Below, piece by piece: positions 1 through 7,109 of a DNA stretch of 7,109 nucleotides. Made by a program: the position numbers and the translations under genes. The stretch's first letter is position 1, and each line of letters opens with the position of its first letter. Origin of the DNA: a virus (taxonomy: Duplodnaviria; Heunggongvirae; Uroviricota; Caudoviricetes); the IMG/VR virus record IMGVR_UViG_2737471848_000001, positions 1-7,109 of that record; one strand, 5' to 3'. Below the pieces are notes generated by a model. The model did no database searches. It was given only the letters and a program-made list of their open reading frames with translations, and had not been told where the DNA came from.

Positions 1-82
1 AGTCATATTCGCCCTGACTTTCCAGAACCATACGAACTGCCCGTTGACGGACCTCGGGGGAAAAACGTGTATTTTTAGTCAT
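1..82 (-). CDS. IS3-family transposase OrfA, N-terminal 27 codons only (3' end off-window)
   Basis: ATG at 82..80 with AAGAGG 9 nt upstream; translation MTKNTRFSPEVRQRAVRMVLESQGEYD matches the N-terminus of IS629/IS1203-group OrfA as I recall it. Open to the window edge. Confidence 0.75.
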   Translation of the reverse strand, partial: MTKNTRFSPEVRQRAVRMVLESQGEYD

Positions 83-136
83 CCTGTTTACCTCTTTCTC
101 AGGGAGTTTAGTCTCCAGGATTCCCGGGGCGGTTCA
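1..136 (-). mobile_element. IS3-family insertion sequence, IS629/IS1203-like, left end only (terminal inverted repeat plus start of orfA); element continues beyond window start
   Basis: Minus strand from 136 downward reads TGAACCGCCCCGGGAATCCTGGAGACTAAACTCCCTGAGAAAGAGGTAAACAGG-ATG, a TG-initiated terminal inverted repeat followed by a Shine-Dalgarno (AAGAGG) and an ORF. I recognise this as the IS629-type left end from memory, unverified. Confidence 0.8.
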
Positions 137-640
137 GCTCATGTTGTTGGCGTATGTCTGCCCGGCGTTTGCCTGACCTTGCAGCGCACCAAGCCCAACG
201 TTTGCCAGATTGTTGTAATTGCTCATCTGATTTGATAACCAAGACTGACCGAGTGTCGGCGCGATCGTAGCCAGTTGATTGCTTGTGGCTGTCGAACCAA
301 GTCCACCCGTCGCCTCCGCAGCAGCAAGACTCTGGTAACGCGCCTGCCCTGCAAGGTCTTTATACTGCTGAGAGTTGTAATACTGATTAAGTGCCTGCCC
401 CTGACCTTCTAAACTGGAAAGGTTCTGAAGCTGGTTAACATACTGCTCCGCAAGAGGCGTGAACGGAGCAAGGTTTTTCATGATCGTCTGCCACTGCTGA
501 TTTTGCAGGTCTGCGGCATACTTCTGAGCTTCTGCTGCATATTTTGCGCTTTTATCAGAGTTGCCACCTTTCCCGCCTTTTTCAGGGCAATAAGGTTCCT
601 CACCGCGCAGTTTTCTGCCCAGTTTAAATGCATATAACAT
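134..640 (-). CDS. Ejection (E) protein, P22 gp7-position homolog, apparently C-terminally truncated by the IS insertion (168 codons vs about 229 expected)
   Basis: ATG at 640..638 preceded by GGGAGA; sits where gene 7 lies in P22 order (after gene 14). The stop TGA (136..134) is the first three bases of the IS inverted repeat, so the reading frame runs straight into the IS terminus. Confidence 0.7.
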   Translation of the reverse strand: MLYAFKLGRKLRGEEPYCPEKGGKGGNSDKSAKYAAEAQKYAADLQNQQWQTIMKNLAPFTPLAEQYVNQLQNLSSLEGQGQALNQYYNSQQYKDLAGQARYQSLAAAEATGGLGSTATSNQLATIAPTLGQSWLSNQMSNYNNLANVGLGALQGQANAGQTYANNMS

Positions 641-642
641 GG

Positions 643-1098
643 CTATCTCCCGTGATTCAGGAAGTCGATTAGTTCTTCGCGTGTGGCGCTGTAAAACGTC
701 ACGTCATCCACGCCTTTGAAGTATTTCTTGATGGTTCCTACACGCTTAAGGCCAATCATTGCGCAGTACATCTGACCGTGGCGGAATTTGCGTGCAGCGA
801 ACGATGTGACGCACTGAACGGTGGTGTTAGTCAGAATGTATTTCCAGAACTCCAGCCCGATTTCCTTGCTGAATCCACGAACCTCTGGCAGGTACATGGC
901 GTGGCAATCGAATGTAAGCGGCTGAATCTCCTGATAGTAAACAATGCCGCCAAACTGACCGTGCACGTTAACCTCAAAGTAACGGCATTCAGGCTTGTAA
1001 TCGTATCCATCACCGTTGTTGCTCCCGGCAATAATGTCAGGGTGATTTCCTACTGCTTCTATCAGGTCGATGTTTCGCGTTGGTTTGAACTGAATCAT
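643..1098 (-). CDS. P22 gp14-position protein (head/tail assembly-associated), 151 aa
   Basis: ATG at 1098..1096 overlaps the upstream stop (TAATG); GGAG 7 nt upstream; TAG stop at 645..643. Assigned by gene order between tail needle and gp7 and by size, not by direct sequence recognition. Confidence 0.75.
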   Translation of the reverse strand: MIQFKPTRNIDLIEAVGNHPDIIAGSNNGDGYDYKPECRYFEVNVHGQFGGIVYYQEIQPLTFDCHAMYLPEVRGFSKEIGLEFWKYILTNTTVQCVTSFAARKFRHGQMYCAMIGLKRVGTIKKYFKGVDDVTFYSATREELIDFLNHGR

Positions 1099-1946
1099 TA
1101 CTGCTCCGCGATTATCTTGATGGTTGTGGCAGTAAACGCCGCACCATTTGACTGGATGGTTAACGTACTGCCATTTGTGGCAAGAAATCCGTCTTTATCC
1201 ACGCTGAAGAACGTAGCTAACAGGATGTTGTCGGTTGTTGTCGCCGCATTACGACTGCTAACCAGTGTGTCAGGAACAGAGCCGGAAAAGGTTAGCTGCA
1301 TTGACCTGTTGGCGGTTCCGCTGGGCCACGTCCCGACGATCGACAGCTTGAAGAACAAGGTTTTGTTCTCGTTGAACACAACCATCTTGTTGTTAACGGT
1401 ATCGAAGAATGGCGCTAATGTTCCTGATGACGGCGTGAGCGTTTTCAGCAGACTGACAAGGTTGGTCGGCGCTGTCGGGATGGTTACAGATACGCCAGAG
1501 TAAACAACCTCTGACTTCTTGCGAGTAGTGGCATACTCCAGAGCATCGATGCGAGTTTCATGGTCTGAAAGCGTGTTTTGAATGGCGACAACTTCATCCG
1601 TCAGGTAATCAATATCGTTTTCTGCTGTCGTTAATCGTGAGTCAAGGCTGACTATCGCCGCTTCTGCGTTAGTGATCCTTGTTTCGTGGTCCTGTATCTT
1701 CGCTTCAGCTGATGCCAGTCGAATTTCGTGATCAACCAGAATCACATCCTGCTCATCGTTCCTGACTTGTGCGTCATAAGCGCCCTGTCCGGCCTCGTTG
1801 GCCTTGTTAGCCACGTTACCAACATCAGTGCCCTGTGCGATAACGTAAAGCAGATACGACTGCGAGAAGATATTGCGTGGAAGAACTGATGTATCGAGCC
1901 GCGTAGCTTGGATGATTACCGGCACATTGAGATTCGAATCCGCCAT
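1098..1946 (-). CDS. 26: Tail needle / cell-envelope-penetrating plug protein (P22 gp26 family), 282 aa, with Sf6-like C-terminal knob-type domain
   Basis: N-terminus [43 protein letters not shown] resembles the gp26 N-terminal domain that docks onto gp10; central heptad-like repeats (DHEIRL..DHETRI..DHETRI); C-terminal about 140 aa Ser/Thr-rich beta-type region unlike P22 gp26. ATG overlaps gp10 stop (TAATG), AAGGA SD. Confidence 0.88.
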
Positions 1947-3364
1947 TACTCAATCCTTATCTGGCAGCCAGACAGAGTGACTGGTGACTTCGTGATAACG
2001 CGCAATTTGAAGCCGACATTTTTCCTGATGCGCCCTACTCGTTTCCACAAAACGCGTTTGTCGTAAACGAACGGTTCATTCTGCTCAATCATCTGCTCAC
2101 GTCCGTAATTGATGCCGTCAGTGGTTGCAGAGAGGAACAGTCGGTCGGCGTACTGCGCAACGCCAGTTGACGATTCAACCTCAAGGTCGAAAACTCTGGC
2201 GTTATCTGCTTTGAAGAGTGGAGTAAACAGCAGGTGTTCCTGCTGCTTGTCGTACTGGCTGCTGATATCGAACTGCAATTTCCCGGTCACGGACTCCAGC
2301 TTATCGCCGCACGTTATCTGATTGCCTTCGTAAATGAAGTCGATAGCGCGGTACACATCGTCATACAGGCCTGTTTTCAGCACACACCATTGCGGACCAT
2401 TGGCGCTTGAAGATGCGTCGTAAACAAGAACATGGCGCGGAAGGTGGATAATCAGCAGCTCATGCGCATCAAATCGCAGAGACTCCATCACGCCATCAGC
2501 CAGTTCATCAGCAGTGTAGGAGCGTAGTATTTTCTCAATGCTCGCGCTGGCGATTGGTGATACCTGACCGGAGCCGATGATATACACAGACGGCGCACCT
2601 GTTGCCGGATTGCTGATGAACGCATAAGAATCAGCGAATGGCGTTTTGCAGTAAGTCCCGGCAATACCTTTCTGCACCATCAGCGATGGTTGTGCAACAT
2701 ACAAAGCGGCACCAACGGTGGTTGCACCAGTCAGGGAGAAATATTCAATCGTCGATGAACCAAAGCAGACGATGAAATCTCGCCATGTGCCGATACCGAT
2801 TATTCCGTCAGGCTGTGATTCTGCCCGATATTGTGCGCTGTAGCGGTCAGGATGCGATTCGTCTTCAAGGTCAGTGATAAACCATGAATCGGTGCCGTCT
2901 TTTGACCACGCATAACGCCCACGTAATCGCGTAATGTCGCGGACTGAGCCTAACTCATACTGCGTGAATCCGCTGTCTGCAGGCCAGTTTGAGACGGTTT
3001 TAACCGTGCCATCATAGCGATACTCGACCAGTTGACCATTAACGCCTACAGCCTGAGATGTCCGACCATGAGCCATTGATACGCGACCACTTCCGGAAAC
3101 ATCACCGACTTCGCTTTCGCCCTTATACAGCTTGCCACCACACACGCGATAAACAGCATTCTGCGCCATGTTGTACTCGACGCCTCGTGATACACCGTTC
3201 ACATCAGAACGTTTGGCAATGCCCGGGAATGAGCGAAGATATCCGCTGCTGTTCAGGATTTCTTTGGGTGTAGCCAACATATTCACTGGCAGATAGTCGA
3301 TATAGTCGGCGTTTCGAAAGTCTTTGCCGACACCTTTCATAAGCGGAAGTTGCTGAATCGGCAT
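1946..3364 (-). CDS. 10: Tail accessory factor / tail hub protein (P22 gp10 family), 472 aa
   Basis: 472-aa ORF, same length as P22 gp10 and strongly similar as I recall it (MPIQQLP...); located between gp4 and gp26 homologs; GGGAG SD; stop-start junction TAAATG with gp4. Confidence 0.92.
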
Positions 3365-3865
3365 TTATTCGCTCCCGTTATCGCAAGGTTCCTTCCGGTG
3401 GAAGTAATTCCAACCGTTCCACTTCGCCAACTGATTACCGCTACCAACAGGCATACGGTTTGGATAACCGGACTTACATTTTGCGGCTTTTGCTCTGTCC
3501 ATTGCAGACAGTTTGACGAGTCGCTCTTTCCCGTATCTGGCAGTGGTTATAAGTTTTGCAGACGCTTCCAGCGCATAATCCGGAGCAATGCGGCAGGCAA
3601 GGTTGAAAATGACGGCATTGATAGCGTTATTTGATAAACCGTGTTTATCGCCAGGATCTGGAGCGACATCTGCATCAGCGAAAATGTAGCCAACGTTGAT
3701 ACCTGGTGACGCATCACCGCCAAGCCATTCAGCCATCATCATTTCAAGGTCGTTAACGCCGTCTTCCATAGACTGCGGTTCGACATCGGTTAACGTGGCA
3801 TTTGATGCCACACCGAGCTTACGTAATGCCGCAAGAACTAAATCACCCTTCGTTGTCAGGTTCAT
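3365..3865 (-). CDS. 4: Head completion / tail accessory factor (P22 gp4 family), 166 aa
   Basis: Preferred start ATG 3865..3863 (AAGG upstream) gives 166 aa beginning [33 protein letters not shown], matching the gp4 N-terminus and length. An in-frame upstream ATG at 3928 would give 187 aa. Confidence 0.85.
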
Positions 3866-4067
3866 CTGCTGCCGCCTTAGGTTTTCGACCAGGCTTTTTA
3901 CGCTGTTTTTCTTCTGGCTCTGCAACATCCTTCAAAAGGTCATCAGGATGTGAAAACCAGCCAGCATCCAGATATTCCTGAAGCTCTTCGGCTTTCACGA
4001 TTTCAAAGTCGTATCCAACGCCTTTCCATTTCTTCATGTCTCCATGACGAAAGATCATGTGTGTCAT
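3843..4067 (-). CDS. Small hypothetical protein (74 aa) between coat and gp4; same position as the extra small gene of Sf6-type late operons; function unknown
   Basis: ATG at 4067..4065 with GGAGA 5 nt upstream; acidic body and Lys/Arg/Pro-rich C-terminus ([23 protein letters not shown]); 3' end overlaps the gp4 start by 23 nt. The ORF-track version starts at a GTG at 4115, which I reject. Confidence 0.55.
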
Positions 4068-4079
4068 GCTTGTCTCCAG

Positions 4080-4106
4080 ATAAAAAAGGGAGCCGAAGCT
4101 CCCTCT
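4080..4106 (-). terminator. Rho-independent terminator-like hairpin immediately downstream of the coat gene
   Basis: Minus strand: AGAGGGAGC-TTCG-GCTCCCTTTTTTAT, a GC-rich 6-9 bp stem with a UUCG tetraloop followed by a 6-T run; begins 5 nt after the coat stop codon. Confidence 0.6.
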
Positions 4107-4111
4107 GGTTA

Positions 4112-5407
4112 TCACGCGGTCTGGTTAGGCAGACCAACACCAATTGCCTCTGGTCGTACAGCACATGCTGAATACCACACAGCAATACGGCACTTACCAG
4201 ACAGAGTGTTGATATCACCCTGCGTTGCGAAGATGCCGTTAACACCAATACCAGGAATGCTGAAGGAAGACGTTTTCATGCCAGCAAACAGTTCATGGGT
4301 TACCGGGATCGGCTGAGACAGAAGGCGGATTGAGTCATCAGCCCAGAACACGTTAGCGGTGGTTGTTGCCACGTTCAGAACGTTTACCGGAGTGGTATCA
4401 GCAAGAGAGGTGTTTACGTTAGCGTAAGCCTTCTCTTCTTTTGTCAGTGACGCGTCATCCAGTGCAATCGGTTTCGGCGTGATTTCGATGTGAGTACCAT
4501 CGATCACACGGGTGATTGAGAAAGTAGCATCATCAGTCAGCACGTTCTTCGCCATCTGAGACAGGAATTTCACACCAGTGAAACTGATTTTGTCGCCGCG
4601 CTTAAATCCGGTGGTGGAGGATACGGTCACCGTTGCAACACGGTTGTCGACGTTCTCTTTGTTACCATCGGTATCAAGGGTGTATGCCTGCGGCTTAAAC
4701 TTCTGCGCACCAGAAACAGTTACACCAGTAGCGGTTGACTTGGTAACTGCCGGAAGTTTCGGTGAGCGAAGAATTTCATCAAAGCCAGCAATCTGACGCT
4801 GAATAGTACCGTTGCGATACGCTTCTTCAGGAACGCGCCCGAAGATGTCACCATCTACCAGGTTGCGGCCTGCTTTACGGTAATCGTCAGGGTTCAGGAA
4901 GTAACTGATGCCCATATCGCGGTTTAGCTCACGGGAGAACATCAGGCGCTCTGCATCAGACACAAAATCCCAGCCAGACAGGCCAGTAGATGGACCAATT
5001 GCGCGGGTATCGTGAACAACAAGCGAGCCCATTTCAGTTGCCTGTTTGGCAATCGCTGACTCAATGTTATTCGCCAGTTTTTTGGCGGATGCTTGGATGC
5101 GGCGACGGTAAGAACGCTCATCACGCAGGTCATCTGCACGAAGCTCGAAGAAATCGTTATCCGGATCGCCCATGTTGCATTTCACGGAGAGTTCCAGAAT
5201 CCCGGTTGCGTTGCCAGTTAAATCCCAGCCAGTCTGGGTTGGCGCTTCCTGCTCAACAGGCATCCACACGGTGTTGCTTGAACGCTGCATGGATTCTGCC
5301 GGAGGGGTGTATTTTGTCACTTTTGACGCCATTGGCGTCAGGTTCTGGACGGTTTCGATGATTTCATCCAGAGCATACGTGACCAGTTGACCTTCATTTA
5401 ATGCCAT
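4112..5407 (-). CDS. 5: Major capsid (coat) protein, P22 gp5 type, 431 aa
   Basis: Full-length similarity to P22 coat protein as I recall it (MALNEGQ..., ...[10 protein letters not shown]..., ...[12 protein letters not shown]); AAGGAA SD; start overlaps scaffold stop (TAATG); TGA stop at 4114..4112. Confidence 0.95.
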
Positions 5408-6318
5408 TATCGAATTCCTTTATTCAGTTGCGCCTTGAGCTTGCGGTATGTCTCTACATCCCCTTTGTTTGCTGCCGCTTCCATCTGCCTTTCAATCGCA
5501 GAGATATTTGCAGCAACAGCGTGTCCATGAATGGGTTCATCAGGTAACGGGGCTTCTGAAACAGGCTTGGCTCGAGGCTTGAGAGTTAAACGTTCTGACA
5601 GTCGAGTGAGTTCAATCAGCGCGGATTGCCCGTTCATCGCCAGCAACTGGCGTGTTTTCTCAGGATTAGCACCAAGGTGATACATGAGAGCGGCGGATTT
5701 CTCCGGGAAGAGGCGCATGATGTCGGCACCGACTGCTGGCGGCACCAGTTGCATGAATGCATCCTCTTTCTCCTGATAGTCAGGGATATTGAGCTTTTCC
5801 GCTGCGTCGTAGTGCTTACGGGCTGCCTCGACGTATTGCGCTGATTGCTGGGTGAACTCCTGAGTTTTGCGACCCTGCTCGGCGACAGCCTGGCTTCGTG
5901 CGTCCATAGCCTTGATCTGCCATTCACTGTTTGCCTGCTGGAAGGCGGCCAGTGCGCGGCTCTGGTCATAGTCGTACTTAGCCAGTGCATCTTCGGAAAG
6001 ATAATCGTTAGGGTCTGGTTGTTTTGGTAACTCAGGGTTCACCCGCAGGTGCTCCGGCAATTCTCCACGCTTAACCGCTTCCATCTGCTGCTCAAGCTCA
6101 CGCTGGCGTTTGCGTTCGATGCGGCGACGGGCAAATTCAGCATTAGTTGCCGGGTCTTGTTTTGGTTTCTCATCGTCTTTCAGGACAATCTCGAAGCCTT
6201 CTTCCTGACCTGCGCTGTCGTTGGCATTATCGACAACTAAGCCATCAGCAGATGCCGCTGCATGATTGCCGGGCAGGGTTAATTCTTCAGAAGCCTGAAT
6301 GTCGGTGGTTTGGTCCAT
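5407..6318 (-). CDS. 8: Scaffolding protein, P22 gp8 type, 303 aa
   Basis: 303 aa, same length as P22 gp8, with highly similar sequence by recall (e.g. [25 protein letters not shown]-terminal [19 protein letters not shown] coat-binding helix-turn-helix region); immediately upstream of coat. Confidence 0.93.
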
Positions 6319-6331
6319 GATTAACTCTCTC

Positions 6332-7072
6332 TTATTGAGGTGTCTCGGCTACTCCGCCGGAGGGGATTTGAACTTGACGCATAAGATTCGCGAAATCCAT
6401 GCGTTGTGAATGAGTCTGGTCTGCATCTTTAAGAAGCAGCTCAGCGTTAGCACGAGCATCTTTGCTGCGCTGTTGCTGGAATTGACCTACGAGCTTGAGG
6501 TACTCACGCAGTTCTGCCTGCTTGTCGAGGTCCATATTGTTGAAGATTTCCGCAATCTTCGCGGCGTTGAGTTGGTTTTGGGCTTCAACCTTGGCGGCTT
6601 CAACCTGAATCTGCGCCTGTTGGTTCTCTGCCTTGAGCAATTCAGCCTGACCTTGCAGAAGGATACCCTGCGCCTGAATTTGCTCTGCTGATGGCTGCTG
6701 CGGCTGCTGTTGAGCCTGCTGTACCATCTCCATCTCTTCAGGTGTTTCTGGTTTCTTCAGCCCCATCATCACCAGTTGCTTGTTCGCGTACTCTCGCATC
6801 ATCTCGACGCCTTTACCATCAAGCAGCGTGAAGTATTGCAGCATCAGCATCTGGAACTCTGGAGTACCTTGTGGAACCTTGGTGAGTAACTCCTGAATCT
6901 CTGCGCGGTTCTGTTCCTTCATACTCTGGAAGGATGGTCCAACGTCCGTATAGCACTCATAGCGACCGCGAATGTCGTTGAGTGTGACCACATTGCCGGA
7001 CTGGTAATCGACAACTTGCGCATAGAGTTGAACGTCTTTCTCGCTTCCATCTTCAAGTGTCAGCGTTACATG
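6332..7072 (-). CDS. 1: Portal protein (P22 gp1 type), C-terminal portion only; 5' end not present in window
   Basis: Frame open from 7072 to stop TAA at 6334..6332; Gln/Ala/Glu-rich C-terminal region ending ...SGGVAETPQ, consistent with the long C-terminal helical barrel of the P22 portal; directly upstream of scaffold. The ORF-track start at 6991 is an internal GTG, not the real start. Confidence 0.85.
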
Positions 7073-7090
7073 TCACGAACGGTGCAATAG

Positions 7091-7109
7091 CTGTCTCTTA
7101 TACACATCT
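7091..7109. other. Tn5/Nextera mosaic-end adapter sequence (CTGTCTCTTATACACATCT), library artefact at contig end
   Basis: Exact 19-nt match to the reverse complement of the Tn5 mosaic end AGATGTGTATAAGAGACAG at the very end of the window. Confidence 0.9.

What the first reader, a model, noticed from the sequence alone, without database searches (positions are those of the whole stretch)
134..640. Ejection-protein gene (gp7 position) ends exactly at the IS terminus: probably a disrupted, non-infective prophage
Seen in sequence: the ORF's stop codon TGA (136..134) is the first three bases of the IS inverted repeat, and the last phage-encoded codons (..ANNMS) abut the IS. Established knowledge: P22 gp7 is about 229 aa and is one of three ejection proteins needed for DNA delivery; gene 20 and gene 16 normally follow it. 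Inference: about 60 C-terminal residues are missing and the IS may separate genes 20/16 and the tailspike from late transcription, so the prophage is likely cryptic for particle infectivity while still expressing head genes.
Basis: partly seen in the sequence, partly recalled or inferred. Interest (0 to 1): 0.65.

Follow-up and report, generated by a model that had tools for sequence, protein, structure and literature searches.

The report
IS-truncated phage ejection gene, decayed prophage
An insertion sequence of the IS629 group cuts off the last 62 residues of a P22-type DNA-ejection protein in an E. coli prophage that has also lost two more ejection genes (seen in sister genomes) and has a broken portal gene: ordinary IS-driven prophage decay.

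Summary
The minus-strand ORF 134..640 encodes residues 1-168 of a 230-aa P22-gp7/Sf6-gp11 ejection protein (167/168 identical to Sf6 and to an intact E. coli O26 prophage). Phage homology stops at base 137, and the TGA at 136..134 is the first three bases of a 1,310-bp IS3-family element of the IS629/IS1203 group. No natural 168-aa form exists. Intact homologues are 223-234 aa with a conserved glycine-rich hydrophobic tail, which is the part lost here.

The prophage is defective, but the IS does not merely separate genes 20/16 from late transcription. In every resolved assembly with the identical junction there is no target-site duplication and gene 7 does not resume. The IS abuts codon ~385 of gene 16, a deletion of about 2.76 kb that removes the gene 7 tail, all of gene 20 and two-thirds of gene 16. 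In the closest relative it abuts DNA of another prophage instead.

Inside the window the portal gene is also split at codon 475 of 721 by IS100, so the head module is not intact either.

This is well-documented IS629-type prophage erosion in E. coli. Interest is low. The window is a short-read contig bounded by IS repeats, with an untrimmed Nextera adapter at 7091..7109.

The parts
1..136 (-). Left end of a 1,310-bp IS3-family insertion sequence of the IS629/IS1203 group. The terminal inverted repeat starts at 136 (TGAACCGCCCCGGGAATCCTGGAGA). The orfA start codon is at 82, and the first 27 codons of orfA are in the window.
   Evidence: 100% identical to copies in thousands of E. coli records annotated as 'IS3 family transposase, programmed frameshift'. 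The full copy in sister loci is 1,310 bp and 95.4% identical to a RefSeq 'IS3-like element IS1203 family' copy. The orfA start was located.
134..136 (-). TGA stop codon of the truncated ORF. It is supplied by the first three bases of the IS terminal repeat.
   Evidence: Junction comparison with Sf6 and with IS copies in other contexts.
137..640 (-). Gene 7 / Sf6 gene 11 homologue, codons 1-168 of 230. This is a pseudogene fragment of the ejection ('DNA transfer') protein.
   Evidence: 167/168 identical to Sf6 gp11 and to O26 prophage WP_000964882. Pfam PF25688 profile positions 1-168 of 230 are matched. Alignment A1.
643..1098 (-). gp14 homologue (DUF2824, head assembly / virion stability), apparently intact.
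   Evidence: Pfam PF11039, profile positions 2-149 of 151. Corresponds to Sf6 gene 10.
1098..1946 (-). Tail needle (gp26 homologue) with an Sf6-type knob, apparently intact.
   Evidence: Pfam PF16532, profile positions 2-175 of 175. Corresponds to Sf6 gene 9.
1946..3364 (-). gp10 homologue (tail hub / DNA stabilisation), apparently intact.
   Evidence: Pfam PF11134, profile positions 1-469 of 469.
3365..3865 (-). gp4 homologue (head-tail adaptor), called as 166 aa.
   Evidence: Pfam PF11650. Gene call in sister loci.
4112..5407 (-). P22-type coat protein, 431 aa, apparently intact.
   Evidence: Pfam PF11651, profile positions 1-422 of 423.
5407..6318 (-). Scaffolding protein, 303 aa, apparently intact.
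   Evidence: Pfam PF09306, profile positions 1-301 of 303.
6332..7070 (-). C-terminal fragment of the portal gene, from about codon 476 of 721. It is a pseudogene fragment.
   Evidence: Pfam PF16510, profile positions 453-594 of 594 only. The intact 721-aa portal is seen in L004, and the breakpoint is at codon 475.
7071..7090 (-). Terminus of IS100 (IS21 family) inserted in the portal gene. It is a simple insertion with a 5-bp target duplication, TGTAA, seen in sister loci.
   Evidence: RefSeq labels istA/istB 'IS100 / IS100kyp family' in L010.
7091..7109 (.). Nextera/Tn5 mosaic-end adapter (CTGTCTCTTATACACATCT). This is a sequencing artefact at the contig end.
   Evidence: Exact string found at 7091. 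The sister loci diverge from the window exactly here. Identifying it as the adapter rests on my own knowledge of the sequence.

Best explanation
The window is the late (virion) region of an Sf6/IME10-like P22-type prophage, integrated at argW in an E. coli lineage, that is being eroded by insertion sequences. A 1,310-bp IS629/IS1203-group element lies immediately after codon 168 of the 230-codon gene 7 homologue, and its terminal TGA closes the reading frame. The product lacks the conserved Gly/Ala-rich hydrophobic C-terminal 62 residues. The IS is not a simple insertion. It marks an IS-anchored rearrangement in which the 3' end of gene 7, all of gene 20 and the first ~384 codons of gene 16 (2,756 bp on the O26 reference) were lost. 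The likely route was an insertion followed by an IS-end-anchored adjacent deletion, or recombination between two IS copies. A second element, IS100, splits the portal gene inside the window. All three ejection proteins are needed for DNA delivery and the portal is needed for packaging, so the prophage cannot make infectious particles. Shown: the truncation point, the IS identity and termini, the absence of a target duplication, the loss of genes 20/16 in sister genomes, and the portal disruption in the window. Inferred: that the window's own genome has the same far side, the order and mechanism of the events, and the functional consequence.
For: Truncation: (168 of 230 codons; Pfam profile 1-168/230; eight intact homologues from seven genera carry the conserved tail). 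No natural short form. IS identity and termini. Simple insertions of this IS make 3-bp duplications (AGC in L007, ATG in the L010 portal gene), whereas the gene-7 copies have none (left flank ...GAGC; right flanks CCT, CGG, AAA). Far flank: it translates in frame to gp16 from residue 385 (KDLRNAVAKNLG...) and matches the O26 prophage gene 16 and Emek gene 16. The endpoints are nested in relatives of the same prophage (99.96% identical over 2.3 kb): gene 16 reference nt 11572 (L002), 11577 (L004) and 11640 (OkiPb01684), with the left endpoint moved back into the coat gene in OkiPb01684. Portal split by IS100 with TSD TGTAA. [quoted passage not shown] The lost tail is the only hydrophobic segment (maximum Kyte-Doolittle 1.57 against 0.6 elsewhere; 42% Gly+Ala; one charged residue). 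IS629 is concentrated in prophages (62%; PMC3271280), and deletions from a few nt to more than 40 kb arise next to it (PMC9943667, citing Kusumoto 2011).
Against: The window stops 136 nt into the IS, so its own far side is unseen. The nearest relative (L003, 1 mismatch in 7,090 nt) has lambdoid nin-region DNA there rather than the gene 16 remnant. The rest of the prophage may therefore lie elsewhere in that genome, and I could not scan whole genomes for stray copies of genes 20/16. The mechanism of the deletion is not resolved. The IS occurs in both orientations at the same junction in different assemblies, which neither a single adjacent deletion nor IS-IS homologous recombination explains. 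No experiment shows that a gp7 lacking its tail is non-functional.
Confidence: 0.87

Rival explanations
1. Simple IS insertion. In the source genome the IS would be flanked by a 3-bp duplication, and the rest of gene 7 plus genes 20 and 16 would follow intact. Only gene 7 would be broken, with possible polarity on downstream genes.
For: The window cannot exclude it, because it ends inside the IS. The ancestral event was probably such an insertion: the target AGC|AGC fits a 3-bp AGC duplication like the one in L007.
Against: None of the four resolved relatives with this prophage (L002, L003, L004, OkiPb01684) has gene 7 sequence beyond the IS. All 40 contigs with the exact product differ from each other by a few nt at most where compared, which points to one clone carrying the rearranged state.
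Confidence: 0.06
2. The 168-aa protein is a natural short form and the IS sits just downstream without truncating it.
For: None found.
Against: The Pfam profile is covered only 1-168 of 230. 110 of the 120 best homologues are 205-249 aa, and the 10 shorter ones are contig-end partials continuing with SIAQQ... or frameshifts. The DNA of Sf6, IME10 and O26 continues in frame past the junction. The C-terminal tail is conserved across seven genera.
Confidence: 0.01
3. The junction is an assembly chimera. The window is a short-read contig ending in repeats and even carries an adapter.
For: An adapter is present at 7091..7109, and both contig ends lie in IS elements.
Against: The identical junction is present in long contigs of 1.4, 2.8 and 5.2 Mb and on 40 contigs in all. 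The window reads 136 nt into the IS.
Confidence: 0.01
4. Same end state, different route. Two IS629 copies, one in gene 7 and one in gene 16, were resolved to a single copy, either by homologous recombination (direct copies) or by microhomology joining at the 13-nt identical termini (inverted copies). This contrasts with a single-copy transposase/IEE-type adjacent deletion.
For: The absence of a target duplication fits both routes. The two orientations with identical outer junctions (L002 against L004/window) are most easily derived from an ancestor with two inverted copies resolved in two ways. IEE has microhomology end-joining activity (PMC9943667).
Against: No assembly with two copies flanking the gene 7-20-16 segment was seen. 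The right endpoints differ by 5 and 68 nt among relatives, which needs further end-anchored deletions in any case. The distribution of the IS100 insertion would require the two-copy state to persist and to resolve more than once.
Confidence: 0.3

Closest known systems
Shigella phage Sf6 gene 11 protein / P22 gp7 (Pfam PF25688, 'DNA transfer protein'), the first of three ejection proteins
   Same: 167/168 identical over the retained part. It holds the same gene position after the gp14 homologue, within the same late-operon order of portal-scaffold-coat-gp4-gp10-gp26-gp14-gp7.
   Different: It lacks residues 169-230, the conserved Gly/Ala-rich hydrophobic tail. It is followed by an IS instead of gene 20.
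IS629 / IS1203 (IS3 family) insertions and IS-associated deletions in prophages of EHEC and other E. coli (PMC3271280; PMC9943667, citing Ooka 2009 and Kusumoto 2011)
   Same: The element is 1,310 bp, with TGA...TCA termini, two ORFs with a programmed frameshift, and 3-bp duplications at simple insertions. It sits in a prophage, with a deletion adjacent to the retained IS and variable endpoints among related strains.
   Different: This copy is 95.4% identical to the RefSeq-labelled IS1203, not identical. The host is a bovine-associated E. coli lineage whose serotype I did not determine. I did not check for the iee gene.
Enterobacteria phage IME10 / Escherichia phage APC_JM3.2 (intact P22-like coliphages), and the intact argW prophage of E. 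coli O26:H11 (e.g. FORC_028)
   Same: IME10 is 97-98% identical across both halves of the window. The O26 prophage matches both flanks of the deletion and shares the argW-intS-yfdC-mlaA location.
   Different: These relatives have a complete gene 7 (230 aa), gene 20 (468 aa), gene 16 (614 aa) and portal gene.

Membership tests
P22_gp7 ejection protein family (PF25688) | Sequence match above Pfam's gathering score | tested here: met
   342 bits against a cut-off of 28, E=2.2e-102.
P22_gp7 ejection protein family (PF25688) | Full-length protein of about 229-230 aa with the conserved glycine-rich C-terminal tail | tested here: not met
   Profile positions 1-168 of 230 only, whereas the intact O26 protein covers 1-230. 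The tail is present in all eight intact homologues. This is a fragment of a family member, not a functional member.
P22_gp7 ejection protein family (PF25688) | Gene context: after the gp14 homologue and followed by genes 20 and 16 | tested here: inconclusive
   The upstream context is met. The downstream side is not visible in the window. In sister assemblies gene 20 is absent and only the last ~230 codons of gene 16 remain.
IS3 family, IS629/IS1203 group | Terminal inverted repeats beginning 5'-TG and ending CA-3', length about 1.3 kb | tested here: met
   TGAACCGCCCCGG...CCGGGGCGGTTCA. IRL and IRR match at 22 of the first 25 positions. Sister copies are 1,310 bp. The window holds only the first 136 nt.
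IS3 family, IS629/IS1203 group | orfA and orfB expressed as a fusion transposase by a programmed -1 frameshift | tested here: met
   RefSeq annotation of copies identical to the window's 136 nt reads 'IS3 family transposase, programmed frameshift', with an AL1L pseudoknot feature. Pfam HTH_Tnp_1 + rve on the called products. This rests on annotation, not experiment.
IS3 family, IS629/IS1203 group | High identity to a named IS629/IS1203 reference | tested here: met
   95.4% over all 1,310 bp to a RefSeq 'IS3-like element IS1203 family' copy. IS629 subtypes differ by 4-5% (PMC3271280).
IS3 family, IS629/IS1203 group | 3-bp target-site duplication at simple insertions | tested here: met
   AGC in L007 and ATG in the L010 portal gene. 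It is absent at the gene-7 junction, which is the evidence for rearrangement.
IS-associated adjacent deletion (IS629/IEE type) | IS retained at the deletion junction, no target duplication, flanks non-contiguous in an intact reference | tested here: met
   The flanks lie 2,756 or 2,761 bp apart in the O26 reference. No duplication is present. This was shown in sister assemblies, not in the window itself.
IS-associated adjacent deletion (IS629/IEE type) | Variable, nested endpoints among related strains | tested here: met
   Right endpoints at reference nt 11572, 11577 and 11640. The left endpoint is at gene 7 codon 168, or in the coat gene in OkiPb01684.
IS-associated adjacent deletion (IS629/IEE type) | Presence of the iee gene in the host genome | not tested
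   No IEE query sequence was in hand, and whole genomes of the source lineage could not be searched with a protein.

The most novel reading that the evidence does not exclude
The same IS629-group copy occupies the identical gene-7 junction in opposite orientations in different long assemblies of one clone (IRL next to gene 7 in the window, L003 and L004; IRR next to gene 7 in L002). This could record an in-place flip of an IS through its 13-nt perfect terminal repeats. Alternatively it could record two different microhomology resolutions of a head-to-head IS pair. Either way it would be a natural trace of an IS rearrangement pathway (possibly IEE-linked) that is rarely caught in genomes.
Probability: 0.25. 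Interest if true: 0.35.

Novelty: already known. Interest (0 to 1): 0.1.

Why it matters
It matters little beyond annotation. The 168-aa ORF should be annotated as a pseudogene fragment ('DNA transfer protein, missing C-terminus'), not as a protein, and this prophage should be scored as a non-inducible remnant in prophage or STEC typing. It is one more example of IS629-group elements, together with IS100, IS66-family and IS1 copies, dismantling a P22-like prophage. The nested endpoints in sister strains could serve as lineage markers.

Tried and rejected
1. I searched 5,426 complete E. coli genomes for the gene7-IS junction. None holds it, and the best hits stop at the junction. The source lineage is represented only by draft or contig-level assemblies and by one further-deleted complete genome, OkiPb01684.
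2. I searched PDB sequences with the intact 230-aa protein and found no solved relative at E<=0.01. No structural statement about the lost tail is therefore possible.
3. I tried to read the 2026 P22 channel preprint (one search failed; one search returned only the abstract stub) and Ooka 2009 (not held). What I take from Ooka and Kusumoto is cited second-hand through PMC9943667.
4. I considered and rejected the natural short isoform, the assembly chimera, and the idea that the in-frame TGA is meaningful. It is a roughly 1-in-3 outcome for an element whose two ends both begin TGA.
5. I did not use the collection scans (genome, metagenome or viral contigs), structure prediction or RNA tools. Nothing in the finding called for them.

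Full report
**1. What is in the window**

All long ORFs lie on the minus strand and form the late (virion) gene block of a P22-like podovirus:
- a portal C-terminal fragment (6332..7070; Pfam P22_portal, profile positions 453-594 only);
- scaffolding protein (5407..6318);
- P22-type coat protein (4112..5407);
- a small ORF;
- the gp4, gp10, gp26 (Sf6-type needle knob) and gp14 (DUF2824) homologues;
- the ORF in question (134..640).

The tail half (137..3370) is 94-97% identical to Shigella phage Sf6 and to an E. coli O26:H11 prophage. The head half is 98% identical to coliphages IME10 and APC_JM3.2. IME10 matches both halves and is the closest intact phage.

**2.

- The ORF is 168 codons and ends ...ANNMS-TGA.
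- Homology to every P22-like phage stops at window base 137.
- Bases 136..1 are 100% identical to the left end of an IS3-family element found in 3,582 of 5,426 complete E. coli genomes.
- At the junction, Sf6 reads AACATGAGC|AGCATTGCA and the window reads AACATGAGC|TGAACCGCCCCGG.
- Copies of the IS in other contexts have different bases before TGAACC, which fixes the terminus there.
- Full copies in sister loci are 1,310 bp. Their terminal repeats match at 22 of the first 25 positions. Their products carry HTH_Tnp_1 and rve domains, and RefSeq annotates them as a programmed-frameshift transposase.
- The copy is 95.4% identical over its whole length to one that RefSeq labels 'IS3-like element IS1203 family'. 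IS1203 is an IS629 isoform, and IS629 subtypes differ by 4-5% (PMC3271280).
- The in-frame stop itself is not special. Both IS ends begin with TGA, and the inverted copy in L002 produces the same 168-aa product.

**3. The gene is truncated**

- Sf6 gene 11 is 693 nt (230 codons), and the match ends exactly at codon 168.
- The product is 167/168 identical to the first 168 residues of Sf6 gp11 and of the O26 prophage protein.
- It covers positions 1-168 of the 230-position Pfam P22_gp7 profile, whereas the intact protein covers 1-230.
- Among the 120 best homologues out of 1,125 hits, 110 are 205-249 aa. The ten shorter ones either continue past residue 168 with SIAQQ... and stop at a contig end, or are frameshifted.
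- Published lengths are 229-230 aa for P22, Sf6, CUS-3 and HK620 (PMC8954989, Table 1).
- An alignment with eight intact homologues from Shigella phage, E. coli, Salmonella, Klebsiella, Pectobacterium, Serratia and Shimwellia shows a conserved tail ending ...STPWGAGIGAGLGLLGSLF.
- That tail is 42% Gly+Ala, has one charged residue and several GxxxG motifs, and is the only hydrophobic stretch of the protein. I infer that it is the membrane- or assembly-active part. This is not shown, and no solved structure exists.

**4. What lies beyond the IS**

The window ends inside the IS, so I looked up the exact 168-aa product. It occurs on 40 contigs, all named E. coli. The resolved contexts are:

| Locus | What follows the IS |
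|---|---|
| L004 (2.8-Mb contig) | 88 nt of gene 16, an IS66-family element, the rest of the gene 16 remnant, a 161-aa ORF, an mnt/arc-like gene, tailspike, acyltransferase, intS, tRNA-Arg (argW), yfdC, mlaA |
| L002 (5.2-Mb contig) | Same as L004 but without the IS66 element, and with the IS629-group copy inverted |
| L003 (nearest to the window, 1 mismatch in 7,090 nt) | A lambdoid nin/Q region, i.e. an IS-mediated junction between two prophages |

None of these shows gene 7 resuming. The far flank of L002 translates in frame as gp16 from residue 385 (KDLRNAVAKNLG...). It is about 81% identical at the DNA level to the 3' end of Emek gene 16 and 97.6% identical to the O26 prophage.

In the intact O26 reference (FORC_028), gene 7 is 230 aa, gene 20 is 468 aa and gene 16 is 614 aa. 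The two flanks lie 2,756 bp apart for L002 and 2,761 bp apart for L004.

Simple insertions of this IS make 3-bp duplications: AGC in L007 and ATG in the OkiPb01684 portal gene. The gene-7 copies have none.

The complete genome OkiPb01684 carries the same prophage (99.96% identity over window 4807..7090) in a more eroded state. There the IS joins coat codon ~201 to gene 16 a further 68 nt in. That genome also has two more IS629-group copies, IS100 in the portal gene and IS1 in the tailspike gene.

Nested, IS-anchored endpoints of this kind are what has been described for IS629. Of IS629 copies in O157:H7, 62% lie in prophages (PMC3271280), and deletions from a few nt to more than 40 kb arise adjacent to the element in the presence of IEE (PMC9943667, citing Kusumoto et al. 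2011).

**5. A second lesion inside the window**

The portal gene is split at codon 475 of 721 by IS100, an IS21-family element carrying istA and istB. It is a simple insertion with the 5-bp duplication TGTAA. Its last 20 nt are window 7071..7090. Bases 7091..7109 are the Nextera mosaic-end adapter. The window is therefore a short-read contig that broke at IS repeats on both sides. Assemblies L004 and L005 have an intact portal, so the IS100 insertion is younger than the gene 7 lesion or belongs to a sub-lineage.

**6. Consequence**

[quoted passage not shown] With gene 7 truncated, genes 20/16 lost from their position in every resolved relative, and the portal gene broken, the element cannot yield infectious particles. 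Its picture of intact genes 20/16 behind the IS, and of an otherwise working head module, does not stand. Expression of the remaining head genes cannot be judged from sequence.

**7. Mechanism and its limits**

My preferred sequence of events has three steps:
1. The IS inserts at AGC|AGC in gene 7.
2. An IS-end-anchored deletion removes DNA up to gene 16 codon ~385.
3. Individual strains then undergo further small deletions (5 nt and 68 nt on the right; back to the coat gene on the left in OkiPb01684) and IS-IS recombination with another prophage (L003).

An origin from two IS copies is equally compatible with the missing duplication.

One observation is unexplained. The IS abuts gene 7 with its IRL in the window, L003, L004 and L005, but with its IRR in L002, at the identical base and with identical outer flanks. 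Homologous recombination between IS copies cannot do this. Two candidate explanations are an in-place flip through the 13-nt perfect terminal repeats, and alternative microhomology resolutions of a head-to-head pair. Neither was tested (note).

**8. Verdict**

- This is a known kind of event, IS629-group erosion of a prophage, in a known kind of phage. There is no sign of a new system.
- Interest is low (0.1).
- The practical outcome is annotation: a pseudogene fragment, a defective prophage, and an adapter-contaminated contig end.

Noticed in passing
window 7091..7109: CTGTCTCTTATACACATCT is the Nextera/Tn5 mosaic-end adapter, left untrimmed at the contig end. Sister loci diverge from the window exactly here. 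It is an artefact, not biology.
   Followed up: yes
window 6332..7090: The portal gene is only a C-terminal fragment. It is split at codon 475 of 721 by IS100 (IS21 family), a simple insertion with the 5-bp target duplication TGTAA. The last 20 nt of the IS are at 7071..7090. Assemblies L004 and L005 of the same prophage have an intact 721-aa portal.
   Followed up: yes
L002:10505-11814 compared with L004:10505-11814 and window 1..136: The IS629-group copy sits at the identical gene-7 junction in opposite orientations in different assemblies (0-1 mismatch in 1,310 nt). L002 keeps 5 more nt of gene 16 (AAAGA) than L004. Recombination between IS copies does not explain this. The 13-nt perfect terminal repeats may be involved.
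   Followed up: partly
L010 (NZ_AP042519.1, E. coli OkiPb01684) 1..20000: This is the same argW prophage in a more decayed state. It has three IS629-group copies, IS100 in the portal gene and IS1 in the tailspike gene. The coat gene is truncated and joined through the IS to the gene 16 remnant 68 nt further in than in L002. The replication and lysis genes are also partial.
   Followed up: partly
L003:11815-20507: In the assembly closest to the window, the far side of the IS is a lambdoid early/late-regulatory region (NinB, NinE, NinG, antiterminator, DUF1737-SASA esterase). An IS-mediated rearrangement has therefore joined two different prophages. The whereabouts of the tailspike-integrase end in that genome are unknown.
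   Followed up: no
window 137..3370 compared with 3371..7070: There is a mosaic boundary near the gp4/gp10 junction. The tail-side genes are 94-97% identical to Sf6 and the O26 prophage. The head-side genes have no megablast match to those but are 98% identical to phages IME10 and APC_JM3.2.
   Followed up: partly
L006:1-40 (Logan contig SRR2914462_125): This short-read contig ends in the opposite IS100 terminus (...GTTGACA|TCATGTAACGC), 3 nt off the junction seen in the window and L003 (...GTGACA|TGTAACGC). It is either an inverted IS100 in that strain or a graph-assembly artefact.
   Followed up: no
L004:11903-14400: An IS66-family element (three ORFs: HTH_Tnp_1, TnpB_IS66, DDE_Tnp_IS66) is inserted in the gene 16 remnant 88 nt beyond the IS629-group copy. 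L002 lacks it. This is a further strain-specific IS hit in the same prophage.
   Followed up: no
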